The notes beneath the pieces were generated by a model. That model worked only from the letters and a program-made list of their open reading frames with translations. It was not told the DNA's origin and made no database searches. DNA of 7,949 bases from a virus (Duplodnaviria > Heunggongvirae > Uroviricota > Caudoviricetes), in IMG/VR virus record IMGVR_UViG_2695420523_000004, one strand, 5' to 3'. A program made the translations under genes and the position numbers. This document shows positions 1 to 7,949 of this stretch, piece after piece. Within the stretch, counting starts at the first letter, position 1, and each line of letters opens with the position of its first letter.

Positions 1-397
1 ATGGATTCCTGTCCCCCTTTGAGGTGGTTTCCACCAGTGCCTGCACGCCGAAAGTAAAACGCAGACGGTCGATGTTTGCCGACGTGATGGTCCGGGTGAT
101 CGGCGTGTCATATTTCACTTCTGTACCGAGCACCGTCTCGGAGCCGGAGGATTCAAATCCCTCCGGCGGTGTCTGCTCCTGCTCACCGGCCAGGAACACC
201 ACCGTGACGCCGGATATATTGGTATTCCCCTCACTGTCCAGCACCGGCGTACTGTTCAGCAGCACGCTTTTTAATCCATCCACCGGACCTTCAACCGGCC
301 CTTCGCTGATGGCATCGATCACACTCAGCAGCTGCGTGGACTTCAGGTTGTCCTTCGCTTCGCGCGGGGTATGCCCCTTACTGCTGCCTTTACCCAT
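1..397 (-). CDS. J: Tail tip host-specificity protein J, N-terminal 132 codons only; the gene continues beyond the window start
   Basis: Minus-strand translation from ATG at 397-395 reads MGKGSSKGHTPREAKDNLKSTQLLSVIDAISEGP..., matching the lambda gpJ N-terminus from memory. GGAG Shine-Dalgarno 8 nt upstream. Not in the ORF track because no stop lies within the window. Confidence 0.9.
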   Translation of the reverse strand, partial: MGKGSSKGHTPREAKDNLKSTQLLSVIDAISEGPVEGPVDGLKSVLLNSTPVLDSEGNTNISGVTVVFLAGEQEQTPPEGFESSGSETVLGTEVKYDTPITRTITSANIDRLRFTFGVQALVETTSKGDRNP

Positions 398-419
398 TCG
401 TCACGCTCCATAAACGACA

Positions 420-439
420 AAACCGCCCGCAGGCGGTTT
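420..439 (-). terminator. Intercistronic stem-loop (8 bp stem AAACCGCC/GGCGGTTT, 4 nt loop) followed on the minus strand by a U-rich tract, between I and J
   Basis: Perfect inverted repeat at 420-427 and 432-439. On the coding strand it is followed by TTTTGTCGTTTAT and then the J ribosome-binding site. Function as terminator, attenuator or RNA-stability element is inferred, not shown. Confidence 0.3.
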
Positions 440-457
440 CACATAAAATGTTTTGCA

Positions 458-1105
458 TCAGCGACCAATCACCACAACCTGACCACCATCCCCTTCGTCT
501 GCCGTGCTGATCTCCTGAGAAACCACACGTGATCCCACGCGCATTTCCCCGTACAGAACAGGCAGAACATTGCCCTGGGCAACCATGTTATCCAGTGACG
601 AGAAATACGTGTTCTGTTTGCCGTTATCTGTACTGGCTGCCGTGGGCGTCCTGGCTTTCGGTGCCAGCATCTGCGCCACACCACCCAGGATCATACTGGC
701 CCCTGCTGCATACATACCCGATACAGCCGCGGCCCCCAGCCAGCCAACAGGGTTCCACCATGCCACCGCAATCAGCGCCGCACCCAGCACCGCCTGAAAC
801 ACACCGCCACTTTTGGCACCCGCCAGACGCGGAACGACGTGGATCACGGCACCATTTGCCAGCGGTTCATTAAGACGGGCAGATAATTCATTTTCGCCTG
901 CATCACGCCCGGAAATGCGCACCTGATACCAGCCCTCATTCAGTTTCTGGCGAAACGACGGAAGCTGTGTGGCCAGCGCCCGGATGGCTTCAGCCCCCGT
1001 TTTCACACGAAGGTCGATGCGGCGGCCAAATCGTTGTAAATCCCCGTAAAGGCAGATGCGTGCCATGCCCGGTGACGCCAGAGGGAGTGTGTGCGTCGCT
1101 GCCAT
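458..1105 (-). CDS. I: Tail tip assembly protein I
   Basis: 215 aa ORF. Overlaps the 3' end of K by about 100 nt as in lambda. Product resembles lambda gpI from memory, with a hydrophobic Gly/Ala-rich central segment. Position between K and J is as in lambda. Confidence 0.88.
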   Translation of the reverse strand: MAATHTLPLASPGMARICLYGDLQRFGRRIDLRVKTGAEAIRALATQLPSFRQKLNEGWYQVRISGRDAGENELSARLNEPLANGAVIHVVPRLAGAKSGGVFQAVLGAALIAVAWWNPVGWLGAAAVSGMYAAGASMILGGVAQMLAPKARTPTAASTDNGKQNTYFSSLDNMVAQGNVLPVLYGEMRVGSRVVSQEISTADEGDGGQVVVIGR

Positions 1106-1745
1106 TTGTCGGTATACCTCTCTCGTTTACTCAGTTGTTCAGGAATATGGTGCAGCAGCTCGCCGTCGCCGCAGTAAATAGCGGCATGATTCGGCACCGA
1201 TGAACCAAAACAGCACAGCAGCACATCGCCCGGCTGCGCCGCTGACAACGGCACCTGATATAGCCCCGTTGCCTCCAGATTATCCAGATAGAGATTCTGA
1301 CCGTGACGCCACCAGTCATCCTCACGATGAAAATCCGGCATCTCAATCCCCGCCAGATGGTAAGCATCCCGGAACAGCGTGTAACAGTCCGTCACCCCGT
1401 GCTCAAAGCGCCGCCCGGTGAGATGCGGCACACAGCGGAATTTATGAATCTCACCCCGGCAGACCAGCCACCACGGCAAATCACTATGCACCTGCAGCCG
1501 CCGGTCGGCCTCACTCAGCCAGGGCAGACCACCGGGGTGGCTGTGGACCAGCGCCACAATCTCACCCTGCATCTCTGCCCGCAGCCAGTCCTCCGGCGAC
1601 ATCCGGAAATACTCCTCCGGCTCACCGGAGATATTCACGCAGGGAAAATATCTTCCCCTTCCGGCGTTCTCACCACGAAGCCGCACGACTCCGCTGGCGC
1701 ACATCGCCGGGCGTGCGCCAGAATCGCTGATTCTGTCTCTGTCAT
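1003..1745 (-). CDS. K: Tail tip assembly protein K (JAMM/MPN plus NlpC/P60), apparently interrupted by a 1-nt frameshift near 1650-1655; an in-frame 199 aa product from ATG 1602 is also possible
   Basis: Frame B (1003-1602 and upstream) contains the HSHPGGLPWLSEAD motif (HxHx7SxxD) and a C-terminal NlpC/P60-like region. The expected N-terminus, MTETESAILAHARRCAPAESCGFVVRTPEGE with a candidate JAMM Glu, is encoded in a different frame: ATG at 1745, 6 nt after the L stop, running into a stop at 1635-1637. ATG 1602 has a GGAGGAG Shine-Dalgarno. Confidence 0.8.
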
Positions 1746-1750
1746 GGGAT

Positions 1751-2449
1751 TTACTGCGAAAGTTTGTTAATGGAAAGGTAGCCGCCAAAATTGCCGACGT
1801 TATTGCGGAACTTGCAACCACTCAGGCATTTGCTGCACTTATCCTTCGTGATATCGGACGTTGGCTGGTCATATTCATCCGCGACAGCCGGGCCATCATA
1901 ACCGCACTCATCGCCACGGTAGATCCAGGTGCAGGTGTTGGCCAGCATGATGCGCCCCGGAAAAACGGCACCATCCGTTTCCGTCGGTGTGGACAACACA
2001 AAGGAGGCACTGACCGCGCTCAGTTCGCTGCACTGCTCGATGCGCCAGCGGCTGATCACCTCCTGCTCCGGATCGGCGTCACTGTTTCCGTTGACGAAGT
2101 TCACCGCATCCAGAAAACGGGCGTAAACCTTACGCCTGACCACCGTTCCGCCGACCAGACTCTGCAGGTCTTCCGCCATCCCGGTGACCATGCCGTGCAG
2201 GTTAGAGACTTTCAGCGTTGGTCTTGCACTGGCTCCTTTGCCGTTCATCTCAAAGCCGCTTCCCTGAATAGGGTACGCCTGATACTGTCGCCCCTGCCAA
2301 GTGACCGACTCACCTTTTTCGTTCTGCTCATTACAGAAAAAATAACGTTCTCCGCCGACCTCTGTCAGATCGACTTCCCAGAGCACGATCAGCGCGGATT
2401 GCTCCGTTTTAGTGCACTCATTGAGTGTTTCCTGCTGTATATCCTGCAT
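1751..2449 (-). CDS. L: Tail tip assembly protein L
   Basis: 232 aa, the same length as lambda gpL and near-identical from memory (MQDIQQETLNECT...FGGYLSINKLSQ). C-terminal cysteine cluster. Start overlaps the M stop (TGATG). Confidence 0.92.
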   Translation of the reverse strand: MQDIQQETLNECTKTEQSALIVLWEVDLTEVGGERYFFCNEQNEKGESVTWQGRQYQAYPIQGSGFEMNGKGASARPTLKVSNLHGMVTGMAEDLQSLVGGTVVRRKVYARFLDAVNFVNGNSDADPEQEVISRWRIEQCSELSAVSASFVLSTPTETDGAVFPGRIMLANTCTWIYRGDECGYDGPAVADEYDQPTSDITKDKCSKCLSGCKFRNNVGNFGGYLSINKLSQ

Positions 2450-2790
2450 CAGTGAGTGACCTCTTCAAAGGTACAGTTAAAATCGGTATACATGGCATTA
2501 TCCGAAATGCTCCACTCCCTGCAGACAACCCGGACAGTCCTGTTGTGTTTTGGCGGACGCCACAAAAAAGCACGAATCCCGGCATGACGGGATAAAAAAC
2601 TGTCCAGCGCGGCACGGGAATATTCATCTGTGACACGAAATACCGGTTTAAACGTTTTCAGATCCGCATTCAGACCACCAGCCCGTCGCTGTTCATATCC
2701 GTCACCAAACTTTACCGTAATAACTGATGGCTTTCGTGTCGTCTCCATCCCCTCACGGGGGATCCAGTTAAAAACTTCAGGCTCAGGCAC
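2449..2790 (-). CDS. M: Minor tail protein M
   Basis: Contains VKFGDGYEQR...FLWRPP, matching the lambda gpM pattern RFGDGYSQR...FLWTPP from memory. Preferred start is GTG at 2790-2788 with a GGAGGA Shine-Dalgarno 7 nt upstream, overlapping the H stop by 8 nt. Alternative ATG starts at 2805 or 2835 lack an SD. Confidence 0.82.
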   Translation of the reverse strand: MPEPEVFNWIPREGMETTRKPSVITVKFGDGYEQRRAGGLNADLKTFKPVFRVTDEYSRAALDSFLSRHAGIRAFLWRPPKHNRTVRVVCREWSISDNAMYTDFNCTFEEVTH

Positions 2791-5700
2791 TGTACAATCC
2801 TCCATCCCGACGCGATGACTGCATAATTGACACAACCCTGCTGTCGATCAGATCCACCAGTCCCCTGGCTGAGCGCGCATCTATCTCGCCATTGCTCCCT
2901 TGATTCTGAATGCTGATGTGATACACGGGAGAATAAACAACCCCCCCGCCACTATTCACATTGCCAATGGCTCTGACCCCAAGAGAGCCGTCCGCTGCCC
3001 GTGTCAGTGGCATGATAGCTTCAGGCCCGGCCTCGCCCATCAGCCCGGCACCTTTCGCAAAAGCAAAATACGTCGGTGTATCCACAATAGTGTTACTGTA
3101 AGCACTCAGATTTGCCGATGTGTAAACACCACCTTTTGCGTTTGCCACCGCCCCCGAAATCCATCCGCCGACCGTACCAAGCCACCCTCCGGCACCGGAG
3201 AGTGACTTCAGTCCGTTAACAATGGCCGCATTCATCAGAATTTTTGAAACTTCCCGGAGAACTGAACTCCCCCAGTTTCTCCAGTCCACAACATTTCCGG
3301 CCAGTGCATCGGAAATATTTGATACCAGTCCGTCCATAGTGGAAACGACAGCATCTGCCGCCTGCGAAGCATAATCGGTGGCACTGTCTGCCCAGTTGGT
3401 CAGCCCCTCCTGGAGTCCTGCATTCCAGTTATTACGTAAAGCATCGGCCTTTGCATAATAATCCTGCTGATCGCTGAGACGCTCTTCCAGATATTTTTTA
3501 TTCAGTTCTTTCTCCTGTTTCCACAGGGCTTCTTCAATTTCTCCGGCCTGATACTGTCTCAGAAGCTCGTTATTTTTCTGCTCAAACTCATGCCGGATAC
3601 TCCACATTTCCTGGAGTCGTTCACGCATCCGTGAGCCTTCACCATATCCCAGTAACTGCGCGTCGTCAGATGCCCGGGCACTGGCATTACTGTCCGCCAG
3701 GCTGCTTTCATACGCAGCAAGCTGCTCACGAATCTTTTTCTGGTCGATGAGTGCTGCATTCTGCAAAAGCGTTTTTTTCTGCGCTTCTGACAGGGTTGAT
3801 AATTCGCCCTGACTGACCTGATATTTCATCTTAGCCAGTTCAGTATTCTGCCCTGCCAGTGCTATTTGTTCTTTTTGCTGTTTAATCAGCCGTTTATAAA
3901 TATCTTCTGTTTTTTCCGCTTCGGTCTTTTTATGCGCTTTGGGTTTATTTGCCTGGTTATTTCGCCAGGCATCCAGTGAGTTATTGATATAATTCTGTCT
4001 GGCTGTCTGATACGCCTCTCCCACAAAGCCGAGATCATCCGCAGCATAACCCAGGCGGGCACGCTCACGGGCTTCCCCCTTCAGGCGGGACAGAGCCAGT
4101 TCGCGCTCGCTGTTATTCAGTGCAGTCTGCGGTTTATCATCCAGGGTTGCCTGTGGTAGCCGTAACGGTACATTCACCAGCCCCTGTCGCTGCTGAAGTA
4201 ATTCATTACCGAGCCCGAGAAGGCGATTAAACTCGGTATGCTGCCCATTCATGATCAACAGGGACTGATACGCTTTGTTTTGTTCCGCGGCCTGTTGACG
4301 GATCAACGCCACCCGTCGCTCCTCCAGCCCGGCAAGCACATCCTGAATGGATTGCGCTTTGCCCTGCATTTGTGTGAGACGGGACTGTTCAACTGCCAGT
4401 TGATTTGTTGCTTCTGCAAGCCCTTCTGTGACAGTTTTTACCGACGTCATGTGGTTAATCATAAAACCGTTATCGGTTGTCCAGCCCGGGTTTGCCAGCA
4501 CATACTGATAGCCAGCAATTTTTTCCTGTAAGGATTTAATCTTACTTTTCTGCTCGTCAATTAACCTGTTTTGCTCATCAAGTGCCTGCCGCGTCTTTTC
4601 CTCATTATCTGACGCTTCAGGAAGCGACATTGCCGACGTTTTCTGGCGAATTTCGTCGATTGTTGCGGCATACTGGCGTGCAGATTCTCTGGCCTGCTCC
4701 TGATTCTGATACATCGTGTACCAGGCCGTCGCCCCCAGCATGACGAGTCCCGGCACACCACCAACCAACCCCAGCGCACCACTTAACAGACGACTCCCCA
4801 CTGACGTGACAGTATTCAGCGTTGTCTGTGCCGCTGTTCTGGCCGCAATATTACGGGTAAGTGACGCCTGAGCAGCTGTCAGCTTCGCTTCTGCTGCGGC
4901 CTGCCTTTCGGTACCGCGAGCAGCAACAACCGCCTGTTGCGCACGATAAACCGCCGCACGCGCCCTGGCGGTTGCTATCTGTGTCCCCCGAAGTTGCGCT
5001 TCAGCAAGAGCCACTTCGTTTCTGGCTGCAGTAATTAATCCGGCAGTTGCAGATCCAGCAGACGACGCCATATTGCCAAAATATCGGGCTACCCCGACGG
5101 CAACCAGAGCACCGGCAGCGGTTGCCACGGTATCAATATTGCCTGCAAGACCATTCAGCACCCCGGAGAGCGTCTTCGTCACTCCGCTTGCCTCGTTCGC
5201 ACCACCAACCCAGGCCATAAAGGCGTTTTCAACTTTGGTTGCAGAGGATGAAACCGTATCAGGCATTGCTGCATATTCATCACGCAACGCCCCAAGCTGA
5301 CTAATCAGTGCAGGAACAACCTTATCGGCGGTTAGTTTTCCGTTATCCGCCATGGCCTTCAGATCCTTACGGGCAACGCCCATTCCCGCAGCCAGCGCAC
5401 GAATAACACGATCACCGCTCTCATTCACCGAGTTAAACTCTTCACCGCGCAGCACTCCCTGCGCCAGTGCCTGACTGAACTGCGTGATCACCGAACTGGC
5501 TTCTGCTGTACTGGCACCGGATAATTTCAGGCCCGTGGAGATCGCCTCGGTGACTTTCAGTACCTCCTCAGAACTGTAACCATACTCCCGCATGGAAGCT
5601 GCAGAACGGGCAAAAAGGCTGGCGTTATCAGAAAACGCCGTCCCCGTTCTCTGGCTGATCGCCATTAATTCACGTTGTGATACCTGAAAATCATCACTGG

Positions 5701-6016
5701 ACTGTGAGGCCTGCTTCAGACGGGCATTTACTGAATTCCACTCATCGGCGAGAGAAATAAGATGACCGGTAGCAAAAGCCCCGGCAAATGCCCCCGCCAT
5801 ATTCAGTGCCGAAGATTTAGCTGTATTTATCTGATCCGTCACTTCTGCCAGTGCACGCCGCATTTCACGGGATGCAGCAGCGGACTGCCGGCCTCCGTTC
5901 TGCATGGTACGGTAGTAATCCTGCCCCATACGCGAAGCCCGGGAGATCTCTGACTGGAATGACCGGGAATTTGCCGAGATTTTAATAATCAGTTCACGTA
6001 ATGTCGCCACACTCAT
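2783..6016 (-). CDS. H: Tail tape measure protein (gpH-like), 1077 aa
   Basis: Single long ORF between the G-T chaperone and M. Ala/Gln-rich, coiled-coil-like central region and a Gly-rich C-terminal part typical of tape measure proteins. Position is conserved in siphovirus tail operons. Confidence 0.92.
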   Translation of the reverse strand: MSVATLRELIIKISANSRSFQSEISRASRMGQDYYRTMQNGGRQSAAASREMRRALAEVTDQINTAKSSALNMAGAFAGAFATGHLISLADEWNSVNARLKQASQSSDDFQVSQRELMAISQRTGTAFSDNASLFARSAASMREYGYSSEEVLKVTEAISTGLKLSGASTAEASSVITQFSQALAQGVLRGEEFNSVNESGDRVIRALAAGMGVARKDLKAMADNGKLTADKVVPALISQLGALRDEYAAMPDTVSSSATKVENAFMAWVGGANEASGVTKTLSGVLNGLAGNIDTVATAAGALVAVGVARYFGNMASSAGSATAGLITAARNEVALAEAQLRGTQIATARARAAVYRAQQAVVAARGTERQAAAEAKLTAAQASLTRNIAARTAAQTTLNTVTSVGSRLLSGALGLVGGVPGLVMLGATAWYTMYQNQEQARESARQYAATIDEIRQKTSAMSLPEASDNEEKTRQALDEQNRLIDEQKSKIKSLQEKIAGYQYVLANPGWTTDNGFMINHMTSVKTVTEGLAEATNQLAVEQSRLTQMQGKAQSIQDVLAGLEERRVALIRQQAAEQNKAYQSLLIMNGQHTEFNRLLGLGNELLQQRQGLVNVPLRLPQATLDDKPQTALNNSERELALSRLKGEARERARLGYAADDLGFVGEAYQTARQNYINNSLDAWRNNQANKPKAHKKTEAEKTEDIYKRLIKQQKEQIALAGQNTELAKMKYQVSQGELSTLSEAQKKTLLQNAALIDQKKIREQLAAYESSLADSNASARASDDAQLLGYGEGSRMRERLQEMWSIRHEFEQKNNELLRQYQAGEIEEALWKQEKELNKKYLEERLSDQQDYYAKADALRNNWNAGLQEGLTNWADSATDYASQAADAVVSTMDGLVSNISDALAGNVVDWRNWGSSVLREVSKILMNAAIVNGLKSLSGAGGWLGTVGGWISGAVANAKGGVYTSANLSAYSNTIVDTPTYFAFAKGAGLMGEAGPEAIMPLTRAADGSLGVRAIGNVNSGGGVVYSPVYHISIQNQGSNGEIDARSARGLVDLIDSRVVSIMQSSRRDGGLYSA

Positions 6017-6026
6017 TCTCCGGACG

Positions 6027-6048
6027 AAAAAAAACCGCCGAAGCGGTT
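6027..6048 (-). terminator. Intercistronic hairpin (AACCGC-TTCG-GCGGTT) followed on the minus strand by a T6 tract, 10 nt upstream of the H start codon
   Basis: Inverted repeat at 6033-6038 and 6043-6048 with a UUCG tetraloop on the coding strand. A-run at 6027-6034 on plus gives the U-tract on minus. Lies in the 40 nt gap between the T stop (6057) and H ATG (6016). Confidence 0.35.
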
Positions 6049-6056
6049 ATGTTGAC

Positions 6057-6744
6057 TCACTGAGACACTATTAAAAGCGCGTTTTCCAGTCCGGCAAATG
6101 GATCTGAAGCGCCTTCTGTCTGCTCCTTCTCCCACTGAAGAAGCGCATCATTCAGTGACACTTTGACCCCCTGCGCACCGTAAACAGCTGAAACAATCTG
6201 GGCAGCCCGGAAATCAGCCCGTTCGTCCCCCAGCGGGCTGAACCTGTCAAATTCTGCCCACATCATGATTTCTGATGCGGACATTTCCCGGCGTAACTCT
6301 GACAATGTGCGCCCCATCCTGAGCGCCAGCATCATCAGAAAACGCATCCCCGGAAGCGCTACTTTTTTTTAACCTCGCCGGCATCACTGATCAGTTCCAG
6401 AGACTGCCGAAGAAGCCGCGCATGCACCGGGCCATACACGGCAATCACCTGTTCACGATCATCCTCTGAAAATACGGGTTGCAGTCCGGTATCACACAGA
6501 ACATCAATGAACAGTTCAACATCTGCCTCCAGATTTCGGCGGGCGCGCTCCGCAACGGATAACGGTGTCTCATCATCTTTTGCTTTAACGATCTCCTGCC
6601 AGCGCAACCAGGCTTCTGCAGAAGGTTCCCGTAACACAACCGTTGCTCCCTCCCATTCAGGCACATCAACGGTTTTATGGCGAAACCCCGACATCGTTGC
6701 CAGTGCCAGATTACGGATATTTTTAGTCATCACATCCATCCTCA

Positions 6745-6745
<1 letters not shown>
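6057..6745 (-). CDS. T: Tail assembly chaperone G-T fusion, made by -1 programmed ribosomal frameshift
   Basis: The T reading frame (6057-6347) is in the -1 frame relative to G. Slipping at A_AAA_AAG (6368-6362) gives ...GEVKK-K-V-A-L-P-G-MRFLMM... with no intervening stop. This is the conserved G/GT arrangement of long-tailed phages. Confidence 0.85.
6359..6745 (-). CDS. G: Tail assembly chaperone G
   Basis: 128 aa ORF immediately downstream of V (TAATG overlap), ending ...GEVKKK-stop. The true start may be ATG at 6730, which has a better-spaced GAGG. Position and the frameshift partner identify it. Confidence 0.85.
6362..6368 (-). other. Slippery heptamer A_AAA_AAG for the -1 programmed frameshift, directly followed by the G stop codon TAG
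   Basis: Plus-strand T8 run at 6363-6370 reads as A8 followed by G on the coding strand. The frame arithmetic was checked codon by codon. Confidence 0.8.

Positions 6746-7949
<1,204 letters not shown>

What the first reader, a model, noticed from the sequence alone, without database searches (positions are those of the whole stretch)
1600..1753. Gene K appears frameshifted: the JAMM N-terminus and the rest of K are in different frames
The frame starting at ATG 1745 encodes MTETESAILAHARRCAPAESCGFVVRTPEGE, then hits a stop at 1635-1637. The downstream frame carries RYFPCVNISGEPEEYFRMSPEDW...HSHPGGLPWLSEAD and the NlpC/P60-like domain. Restoring one base between GAA and GATAT (minus strand, about 1653-1654 on plus) would join them into one ORF of about 247 aa with an E...HxHx7SxxD JAMM signature. 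As it stands, K is either a pseudogene, a sequencing error, or expressed only as a 199 aa product from ATG 1602 lacking the upstream Glu segment.
Basis: partly seen in the sequence, partly recalled or inferred. Interest (0 to 1): 0.6.

Follow-up and report, generated by a model that had tools for sequence, protein, structure and literature searches.

The report
Frameshifted tail gene K in dead prophage
The phage tail-assembly gene K in this E. coli prophage has really lost one base, which splits its N-terminal metalloprotease domain across two reading frames; it is an ordinary inherited pseudogene in a prophage that an insertion sequence has also broken.

Summary
On the minus strand, ATG 1745 opens a 36-codon ORF that ends at TGA 1637-1635. 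The rest of K runs in another frame to 1003. The cause is one missing A in a run at 1653-1654: GGGGAAGAT here, GGGGAAAGAT in every relative. Adding the base back gives a 247-aa protein with a complete Prok-JAB domain (E19, H68-x-H-x7-S-xx-D) followed by NlpC/P60. The 199-aa product from ATG 1602 lacks the catalytic Glu and scores below the Pfam threshold for JAB.

The window is the whole contig CYDH01000099.1 of GCA_001284045.1. Five separate assemblies share the same deletion, and all five also share one IS100 insertion in the tail-completion gene. Sister prophages with the same tape-measure protein but no IS have an intact K. This is therefore a real mutation inherited in one clonal lineage with a defective prophage. 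It is neither an assembly error nor programmed recoding. It was absent from 9,402 K copies in complete E. coli genomes.

Side result: the 199-aa K of the lambda reference reflects a different missing base, a G after 14266, which four other lambda sequences carry.

Ordinary finding, low interest.

The parts
1635..1745 (-). N-terminal fragment of K: 36 codons plus TGA. It encodes JAB profile positions 3-33, including the catalytic Glu (E19).
   Evidence: Translation. Pfam Prok-JAB match of the 36-aa peptide, 21.5 bits. E19 aligns with the conserved Glu of PDB 2kks.
1653..1654 (-). Lesion: an A2 run where all relatives have A3 (GGGGAAGAT against GGGGAAAGAT). This is a 1-nt deletion in codon 32.
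   Evidence: Alignments. Shared by 5 assemblies.
1003..1652 (-). Remainder of K, residues 32-247 of the intact protein, in the other frame. It holds the JAMM HxHx7SxxD motif and the NlpC/P60 domain.
   Evidence: Translation. Pfam. Motif position.
1600..1618 (-). Internal start ATG 1602-1600 (MSPEDW, 199 aa), with the Shine-Dalgarno-like GGAGGAG at 1618-1612, 9 nt upstream.
   Evidence: Sequence. Gene callers choose this start even where K is intact. Both the SD-like motif and the ATG lie inside a predicted stable hairpin.
1641..1647 (-). Formal X XXY YYZ heptamer T TTC CCT in the frame of the 36-codon ORF. A -1 slip here would give a 247-aa K that differs only by RY to DI. This is speculative.
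   Evidence: Read from the sequence. Downstream fold. Not tested.
1751..2449 (-). Gene L (232 aa), intact. Its stop lies 5 nt upstream of the K ATG.
458..1105 (-). Gene I (215 aa), intact. It overlaps the end of K by 103 nt, as in lambda.
7509..7651 (-). C-terminal remnant of the tail-completion gene (gp17 family), cut by the IS.
   Evidence: Similarity to relatives ends at 7650. The junction is shared by 5 assemblies.
7652..7949 (+). Left end of an IS100 (IS21-family) element with the start of istA. It runs to the end of the contig.

Best explanation
Gene K of a lambda-type tail module (M-L-K-I-J) has a genuine one-base deletion, A3 to A2, in codon 32. Normal translation from the true start at ATG 1745, 5 nt after the L stop, ends after 36 codons. 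The full-length 247-aa JAB/MPN+ and NlpC/P60 tail-tip assembly protein therefore cannot be made. The break falls inside the JAB domain, between the catalytic Glu (E19) and the zinc-binding H68-x-H-x7-S-xx-D motif. Any product restarted at ATG 1602 would keep the NlpC/P60 domain but would lack a working JAMM site.

The mutation is inherited in a clonal E. coli lineage. In that lineage the same prophage also has an IS100 element inserted in its tail-completion gene. K is therefore a young pseudogene in a prophage that is already defective for tail assembly.

Shown: the deletion, the domain split, its presence in five assemblies and its co-occurrence with the IS. Inferred: loss of K function and relaxed selection on the prophage.
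For: - Deletion located by alignment.
- The repaired protein has a full Prok-JAB domain (53.3 bits) plus NLPC_P60. The 199-aa product keeps only JAB profile positions 63-113 at 23.7 bits, below the 25-bit cutoff.
- JAMM motif and Glu positions.
- In JAMM enzymes the Glu acts as the acid-base catalyst, and mutating it abolishes Csn5 activity (PMC300881).
- The window equals contig CYDH01000099.1 of GCA_001284045.1.
- The same deletion and the same IS100/gp17 junction occur in GCA_966507045.1, GCA_001277535.1, GCA_027984145.1 and GCA_001286305.1. These contigs are identical over about 7.1 kb apart from two changes private to the window.
- Four contigs with the identical tape-measure protein but no IS carry an intact K.
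- The nearest complete-genome prophage differs by only 6 substitutions plus this deletion, and its K is an intact 247-aa C40 family peptidase.
- All other tail genes in the window are intact, which fits recent decay.
Against: - No read-level data were available.
- Three of the five assemblies come from one accession series (CY...) and could be close isolates, so the number of truly independent observations may be nearer three.
- Contigs break inside the IS, so it is not shown that the rest of the prophage is missing or otherwise inactive.
- A Shine-Dalgarno-like GGAGGAG lies 9 nt before ATG 1602, and a formal slippery heptamer sits before the stop. Some K-derived product cannot be excluded.
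- The function of the JAB domain in tail assembly has not been established experimentally.
Confidence: 0.85

Rival explanations
1. Sequencing or assembly error: the genome really has AAA, and the contig under-called a short homopolymer.
For: - The exact deletion-bearing sequence was not found in 9,402 K copies of 5,426 complete E. coli genomes, in IMG/VR, in GTDB representative genomes or in metagenome contigs.
- The same contig has two other private oddities near its end. One is an AAAA to AAA contraction in istA, found in none of 5,376 IS100 copies. The other is two T to G changes that make a G8 run.
Against: - Five separately deposited assemblies, from at least three accession series, carry the identical deletion.
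- An assembly from the same series, GCA_001285045.1, has AAA, so no pipeline artefact explains it.
- The A8 run at the G/T site, much more error-prone, is unchanged.
- The two private oddities are absent from, or not covered by, the sister contigs and lie within 470 nt of the contig end.
Confidence: 0.03
2. K is still functional as a truncated 199-aa protein. Translation would start at ATG 1602 on the GGAGGAG Shine-Dalgarno sequence, possibly by reinitiation after the TGA 32 nt upstream. The JAB N-terminus would then be dispensable.
For: - SD-like GGAGGAG lies 9 nt before the ATG.
- Gene callers prefer this start even in intact genes, in 207 blocks of the collection.
- The lambda reference has been annotated and used as a 199-aa K for decades (PMC7291167).
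- The NlpC/P60 domain is complete.
Against: - The product lacks the catalytic Glu and half of the JAB fold.
- The SD-like motif and the ATG are buried in a predicted stable hairpin, -42 kcal/mol, z -4.4.
- Four other lambda sequences carry a 247-aa K, so lambda is not clear evidence that 199 aa suffices.
- The 247-aa form is retained across thousands of prophage copies.
- The prophage has an IS in another tail gene, so nothing selects for K function.
Confidence: 0.08
3. Recoding: a -1 ribosomal slip at T TTC CCT (1647-1641), helped by the downstream hairpin, restores a 247-aa K with RY changed to DI.
For: - The heptamer has the formal X XXY YYZ pattern in the correct frame, two codons before the stop.
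- Stable structure lies downstream, z -4.4.
- A true programmed -1 site, A AAA AAG, exists in the same operon at G/T.
Against: - The two-frame layout is not conserved. It is confined to one clonal lineage, and every relative is single-frame.
- The heptamer is in frame only as a by-product of the deletion.
- The hairpin starts 10 nt after the heptamer, and the outermost stem includes the heptamer itself.
- YYZ = CCU is not, to my knowledge, a recognised efficient slippery codon in E. coli.
Confidence: 0.03

Closest known systems
Lambdoid tail tip assembly protein K, 247-aa form (for example WP_032180051.1 'C40 family peptidase', and K of phages 434, 21 and HK630)
   Same: It occupies the same position between L and I, starts 5 nt after the L stop and overlaps I by 103 nt. 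It is 95-99.9% identical at the nucleotide level. After repair it has the same Prok-JAB plus NlpC/P60 architecture.
   Different: One A is missing in codon 32, so the ORF is split into 36 codons plus a second frame. The intact forms are a single 744-nt ORF.
K of the lambda reference sequence (J02459 / NC_001416, 199 aa, 14276-14875)
   Same: It is also in two frames, with an orphan N-terminal ORF (76 codons) and a 199-aa annotation from the same MSPEDW ATG. It is also caused by one missing base in the JAB N-terminal region.
   Different: The missing base is a different one, a G after 14266, about 40 nt downstream of the window's lesion. Four other lambda sequences and DE3 carry that G, so the reference state may be an error in the 1982 sequence or peculiar to that strain. 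The window's deletion is confirmed by five assemblies.
Programmed -1 frameshift of the tail chaperone genes G/GT
   Same: Both show two overlapping frames in the same tail operon. The window holds a real example at A AAA AAG, within the A8 run at 6370-6363.
   Different: G/GT is conserved across relatives and uses a canonical slippery site. The K split is lineage-specific and arose by mutation.
Stf frameshift of laboratory lambda (lambda PaPa compared with Ur-lambda)
   Same: Both are single-base frameshifts that inactivate a tail gene in a particular lineage (PMC10721106 and PMC12617516).
   Different: The gene differs. stf is dispensable for plaque formation, whereas K is reported as required for tail assembly (PMC12617516). 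Here the host prophage is already disrupted by an IS.

Membership tests
Lambda gpK-type tail tip assembly protein (JAB/MPN+ plus NlpC/P60) | Encoded between L and I in an M-L-K-I-J tail-tip cluster | tested here: met
   ORF map. Annotated relatives.
Lambda gpK-type tail tip assembly protein (JAB/MPN+ plus NlpC/P60) | Single ORF of about 247 aa starting 4-5 nt after the L stop | tested here: not met
   The ORF from ATG 1745 stops after 36 codons. Relatives have a 744-nt ORF.
Lambda gpK-type tail tip assembly protein (JAB/MPN+ plus NlpC/P60) | Complete N-terminal JAB domain with E...HxHx7SxxD on one polypeptide | tested here: not met
   E19 is on the 36-aa fragment and HSHPGGLPWLSEAD is in the other frame. 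The 199-aa product scores 23.7 bits, below the 25-bit cutoff. The feature is met only after adding one base, at 53.3 bits.
Lambda gpK-type tail tip assembly protein (JAB/MPN+ plus NlpC/P60) | C-terminal NlpC/P60 domain | tested here: met
   PF00877, 49-50 bits, full profile 1-105.
Programmed -1 ribosomal frameshift | Two-frame arrangement conserved among homologues | tested here: not met
   Relatives are single-frame. The split is confined to one clonal lineage.
Programmed -1 ribosomal frameshift | Slippery heptamer in the zero frame with a downstream stimulatory structure | tested here: inconclusive
   T TTC CCT fits the formal pattern. The downstream fold has z -4.4, but the spacer is 10 nt and the outer stem includes the heptamer. 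No efficiency data.
Assembly or sequencing artefact | Not reproduced in independent assemblies of the same element | tested here: not met
   An identical deletion is present in 5 assemblies.
Degraded (defective) prophage | An independent disruptive lesion in another essential morphogenesis gene | tested here: met
   IS100 is inserted in the gp17-family tail-completion gene at 7651/7652, and all K-deleted contigs share it.
Degraded (defective) prophage | Failure to produce particles on induction | not testable with these tools
   Needs an experiment.

The most novel reading that the evidence does not exclude
The lesion might not abolish K function. A K-derived product could still be made, either the 199-aa protein from the internal SD and ATG 1602 or a 247-aa protein through a -1 slip at T TTC CCT. 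If the lambda reference state is real in some lambda stocks, the two cases together would mean that the catalytic Glu-bearing N-terminus of the JAB domain is dispensable for tail assembly, and that K has a natural internal start.
Probability: 0.07. Interest if true: 0.35.

Novelty: already known. Interest (0 to 1): 0.12.

Why it matters
For this window it matters little. It is one more decaying prophage gene, useful mainly as a lineage marker and as a warning that a K call of 199 aa 'NlpC/P60 only' is a truncation.

Two practical points follow.
- Gene callers often start K at the internal ATG even when the DNA is intact (207 blocks of the collection). Many database K proteins therefore lack the JAB N-terminus for annotation reasons alone.
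- The canonical 199-aa lambda K (UniProt and GenBank), still used in structural and bioinformatic work such as PMC7291167, probably lacks 48 N-terminal residues including the catalytic Glu. Four other lambda genome sequences have an extra G after 14266. Anyone studying what gpK does should use the 247-aa form.

Tried and rejected
- Exact-pattern scans for the deletion-bearing sequence found nothing in IMG/VR, GTDB representatives or metagenome contigs. A 78-mer BLAST against complete E. coli genomes also gave no exact match. A positive control with the intact sequence found 102 IMG/VR contigs.
- Those null results, together with the private istA contraction and G8 run, made me favour a sequencing error at first. 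I rejected that once the exact-protein look-up of the tape-measure protein found the source contig and four sister assemblies with the same deletion.
- The look-up of the 36-aa peptide found nothing. The look-up of the 56-aa gp17 remnant found only two contigs.
- The look-up of the 199-aa product returned contigs with intact DNA, which showed a start-calling artefact rather than further frameshifts.
- Literature searches for a published note on a lambda K frameshift or a base at 14266 found nothing relevant. The Casjens and Hendrix review is not held.
- I tried to decide whether the lambda reference state is real by checking OR974322. It carries Sam7 but not cI857 or ind1 and may be reference-guided, so the result is inconclusive.
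- I recall, without being able to verify it here, that a vendor's notes on lambda DNA list '+G at 14266'.

Full report
**What is in the window.** The window carries a lambda-type tail module on the minus strand:
- start of J, 1-397
- I, 458-1105
- K, 1003-1745
- L, 1751-2449
- M, about 2449-2805
- tape-measure gene H, 2783-6010 (1,075 aa)
- T, 6057-6347
- G, 6359-6730
- major tail gene V, 6745-7449
- a remnant of a gp17-family tail-completion gene, 7509-7651

From 7652 to the end the sequence is the left end of an IS100 (IS21-family) element with the start of istA.

**Checking the observation.** ATG 1745 lies 5 nt after the L stop and opens MTETESAILAHARRCAPAESCGFVVRTPEGEDIFPA, which ends at TGA 1637-1635. 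The rest of K is in another frame that runs to 1003. The first ATG of that frame after the junction is 1602, giving MSPEDW... and 199 aa.

Alignment with lambda, 434, 21, cdtI, Tritos and vB_EcoS-689R5 shows that the window has GGGGAAGAT where all of them have GGGGAAAGAT. One A is missing from the run at 1654-1653. The nearest complete-genome relative is a prophage of E. coli WP4-S17-ESBL-08, 99.9% identical over window 1-7650. It differs by only six substitutions and this one deletion. Its K is an intact 744-nt gene, WP_032180051.1, annotated as a C40 family peptidase.

**What the lesion does to the protein.** With the A restored, the product is 247 aa.
- It matches Prok-JAB (PF14464) over residues 4-105 across essentially the whole profile (53.3 bits; cutoff 25).
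- It matches NLPC_P60 over residues 111-224.
- The JAMM motif HSHPGGLPWLSEAD starts at H68, and the conserved Glu is E19. E19 aligns with the Glu of the JAB-domain structure 2kks.

In JAMM enzymes the His and Asp residues bind zinc. The Glu holds the water ligand and acts as the acid-base catalyst, and mutating it abolishes Csn5 activity (PMC300881).

The deletion separates E19, on the 36-aa fragment, from the zinc site. The 199-aa product retains only JAB profile positions 63-113 and falls below the Pfam threshold at 23.7 bits. Its NlpC/P60 domain is complete.

**Real mutation or error?** The first searches suggested an error.
- The deletion-bearing sequence was absent from 9,402 K copies in 5,426 complete E. 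coli genomes.
- It was also absent from IMG/VR, GTDB representatives and metagenome contigs. The intact version occurs in 102 IMG/VR contigs.
- The same contig carries a private AAAA to AAA contraction in istA, found in none of 5,376 IS100 copies.
- It also carries two private T to G changes that create a G8 run at 7485-7492.

An exact-sequence look-up of the window's tape-measure protein settled the question. The window is the reverse complement of the entire contig CYDH01000099.1 of GCA_001284045.1. Four other assemblies carry the identical K deletion: GCA_966507045.1, GCA_001277535.1, GCA_027984145.1 and GCA_001286305.1.

All five contigs also share the same junction between IS100 and the tail-completion gene. 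They are identical to one another over about 7.1 kb, apart from the window's private G8 changes. Four contigs encode the identical tape-measure protein but have no IS. These have an intact K and differ from the deleted group by three substitutions.

The deletion is therefore a real, inherited mutation in one clonal lineage. The G8 run and the istA contraction lie within 470 nt of the contig end. The G8 run is absent from the sister contigs, and the istA site lies beyond their ends. Both are best read as contig-end errors or private changes.

**Most likely explanation (confidence 0.85).** K is a young pseudogene in a prophage already disabled by IS100 insertion into its tail-completion gene. 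The other tail genes in the window are still intact, with one non-synonymous change in H, one synonymous change each in L and V, and none in I. That fits recent decay under relaxed selection.

Loss of function is inferred, not shown. GpK is reported as required for lambda tail assembly, is not found in virions, and its role is unknown (PMC12617516; PMC10721106).

**Rival explanations.**
- *A functional 199-aa K.* GGAGGAG sits 9 nt before ATG 1602. Gene callers choose that start even where the DNA is intact, in 207 blocks of the collection. However, the product lacks the catalytic Glu. The SD-like motif and the ATG lie in a predicted stable hairpin (-42.2 kcal/mol, z -4.4). The 247-aa form is what thousands of prophages retain.
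- *Recoding.* By accident of the deletion, T TTC CCT (1647-1641) is a formal X XXY YYZ heptamer in the frame of the short ORF. A -1 slip there would give a 247-aa K differing only by RY to DI. The two-frame layout is not conserved, though, and the heptamer is not a recognised efficient one.
- *A natural split.* PHROGs holds families for naturally or artefactually split K halves. These include phrog_2635 for the JAB half, phrog_2552 for the NlpC/P60 half, and phrog_7305, a 76-residue family that the repaired K matches over residues 1-76, the length of the orphan ORF in the lambda reference. The window's break lies inside the JAB domain, not between domains.

**Comparison with lambda.** It does carry the A. 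However, the reference (J02459 / NC_001416) lacks a different base, a G after 14266. That is why it shows a 148-nt gap after L and a 199-aa K from 14276.

Over 13524-15004 this G is the only difference between the reference and four other lambda records: LC730321 (48,503 bp), PV340536, KT232076 and OM418626. With the G, K is 247 aa from ATG 14133. The BLAST span for DE3 also includes the extra base.

Only OR474059 (unverified) and OR974322 share the reference state. OR974322 carries Sam7 but may be reference-guided. The 199-aa lambda K is therefore probably an error in the 1982 sequence or a peculiarity of that strain. I found no paper that says so.

**Verdict.** The feature is an ordinary frameshift pseudogene of a known gene family in a defective prophage. 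Novelty: already known. Interest: low.

Noticed in passing
L001 (NC_001416) 14266/14267; L120-L125: The lambda reference lacks a G that four other lambda sequences and DE3 carry. With the G, lambda K is 247 aa from ATG 14133, with a complete JAB domain, instead of the canonical 199 aa from 14276. OR974322 and OR474059 share the reference state.
   Followed up: yes
window 7652-7949 (+) and 7509-7651 (-): An IS100 (IS21-family) element is inserted in the gp17-family tail-completion gene, leaving its C-terminal 47 codons. The contig ends inside the IS. All five K-deleted assemblies share the junction, and it is absent from complete E. coli genomes.
   Followed up: yes
window 7871-7873 (+): istA of the IS100 copy has AAA where 5,376 IS100 copies have AAAA, which frameshifts the transposase after about 44 codons. 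The site lies 77 nt from the contig end and the sister contigs do not reach it. It is probably a contig-end error or a private mutation.
   Followed up: partly
window 7485-7492 (+): A G8 run stands where all relatives, including the four sister contigs, have GGGTGGGT. The two T to G changes are private to this contig and lie in the intergenic region upstream of the major tail gene. An assembly or base-call error is likely.
   Followed up: partly
L012-L017 (K at 8001-8600 of each locus): Gene callers annotate K as 199 aa, NlpC/P60 only, in 207 blocks of the collection even though the DNA encodes an intact 247-aa K. They appear to prefer the internal ATG with GGAGGAG over the SD-less start that is coupled to the L stop.
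   Followed up: yes
window 1592-1630 (-), within the folded stretch 1560-1647: A predicted stable RNA hairpin is built from CTCCGG/CCGGAG inverted repeats and buries the internal SD-like motif and ATG 1602. The 88-nt fold has -42.2 kcal/mol and z -4.4. Phage 21 has changes that would break two of its pairs. Its significance is unknown.
   Followed up: partly
window 6359-6370 (-): This is the canonical programmed -1 frameshift site of the tail chaperones G and GT. A AAA AAG lies within an A8 run just before the G stop (TAG 6361-6359), and the -1 frame joins T (ATG 6347). It is unchanged relative to relatives.
   Followed up: partly
window 458-1105 (-): The start of gene I is called inconsistently: 215 aa overlapping K by 103 nt, or 182 aa starting at the K stop. 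The lambda annotation uses the overlapping form.
   Followed up: no
L008 (NZ_CP024257) 3001-10650: A near-identical prophage in E. coli F5505-C1 has J and the tape-measure gene flagged as frameshifted, and its capsid region is replaced by IS66. This is another independently decaying copy, or an assembly rich in indel errors.
   Followed up: no
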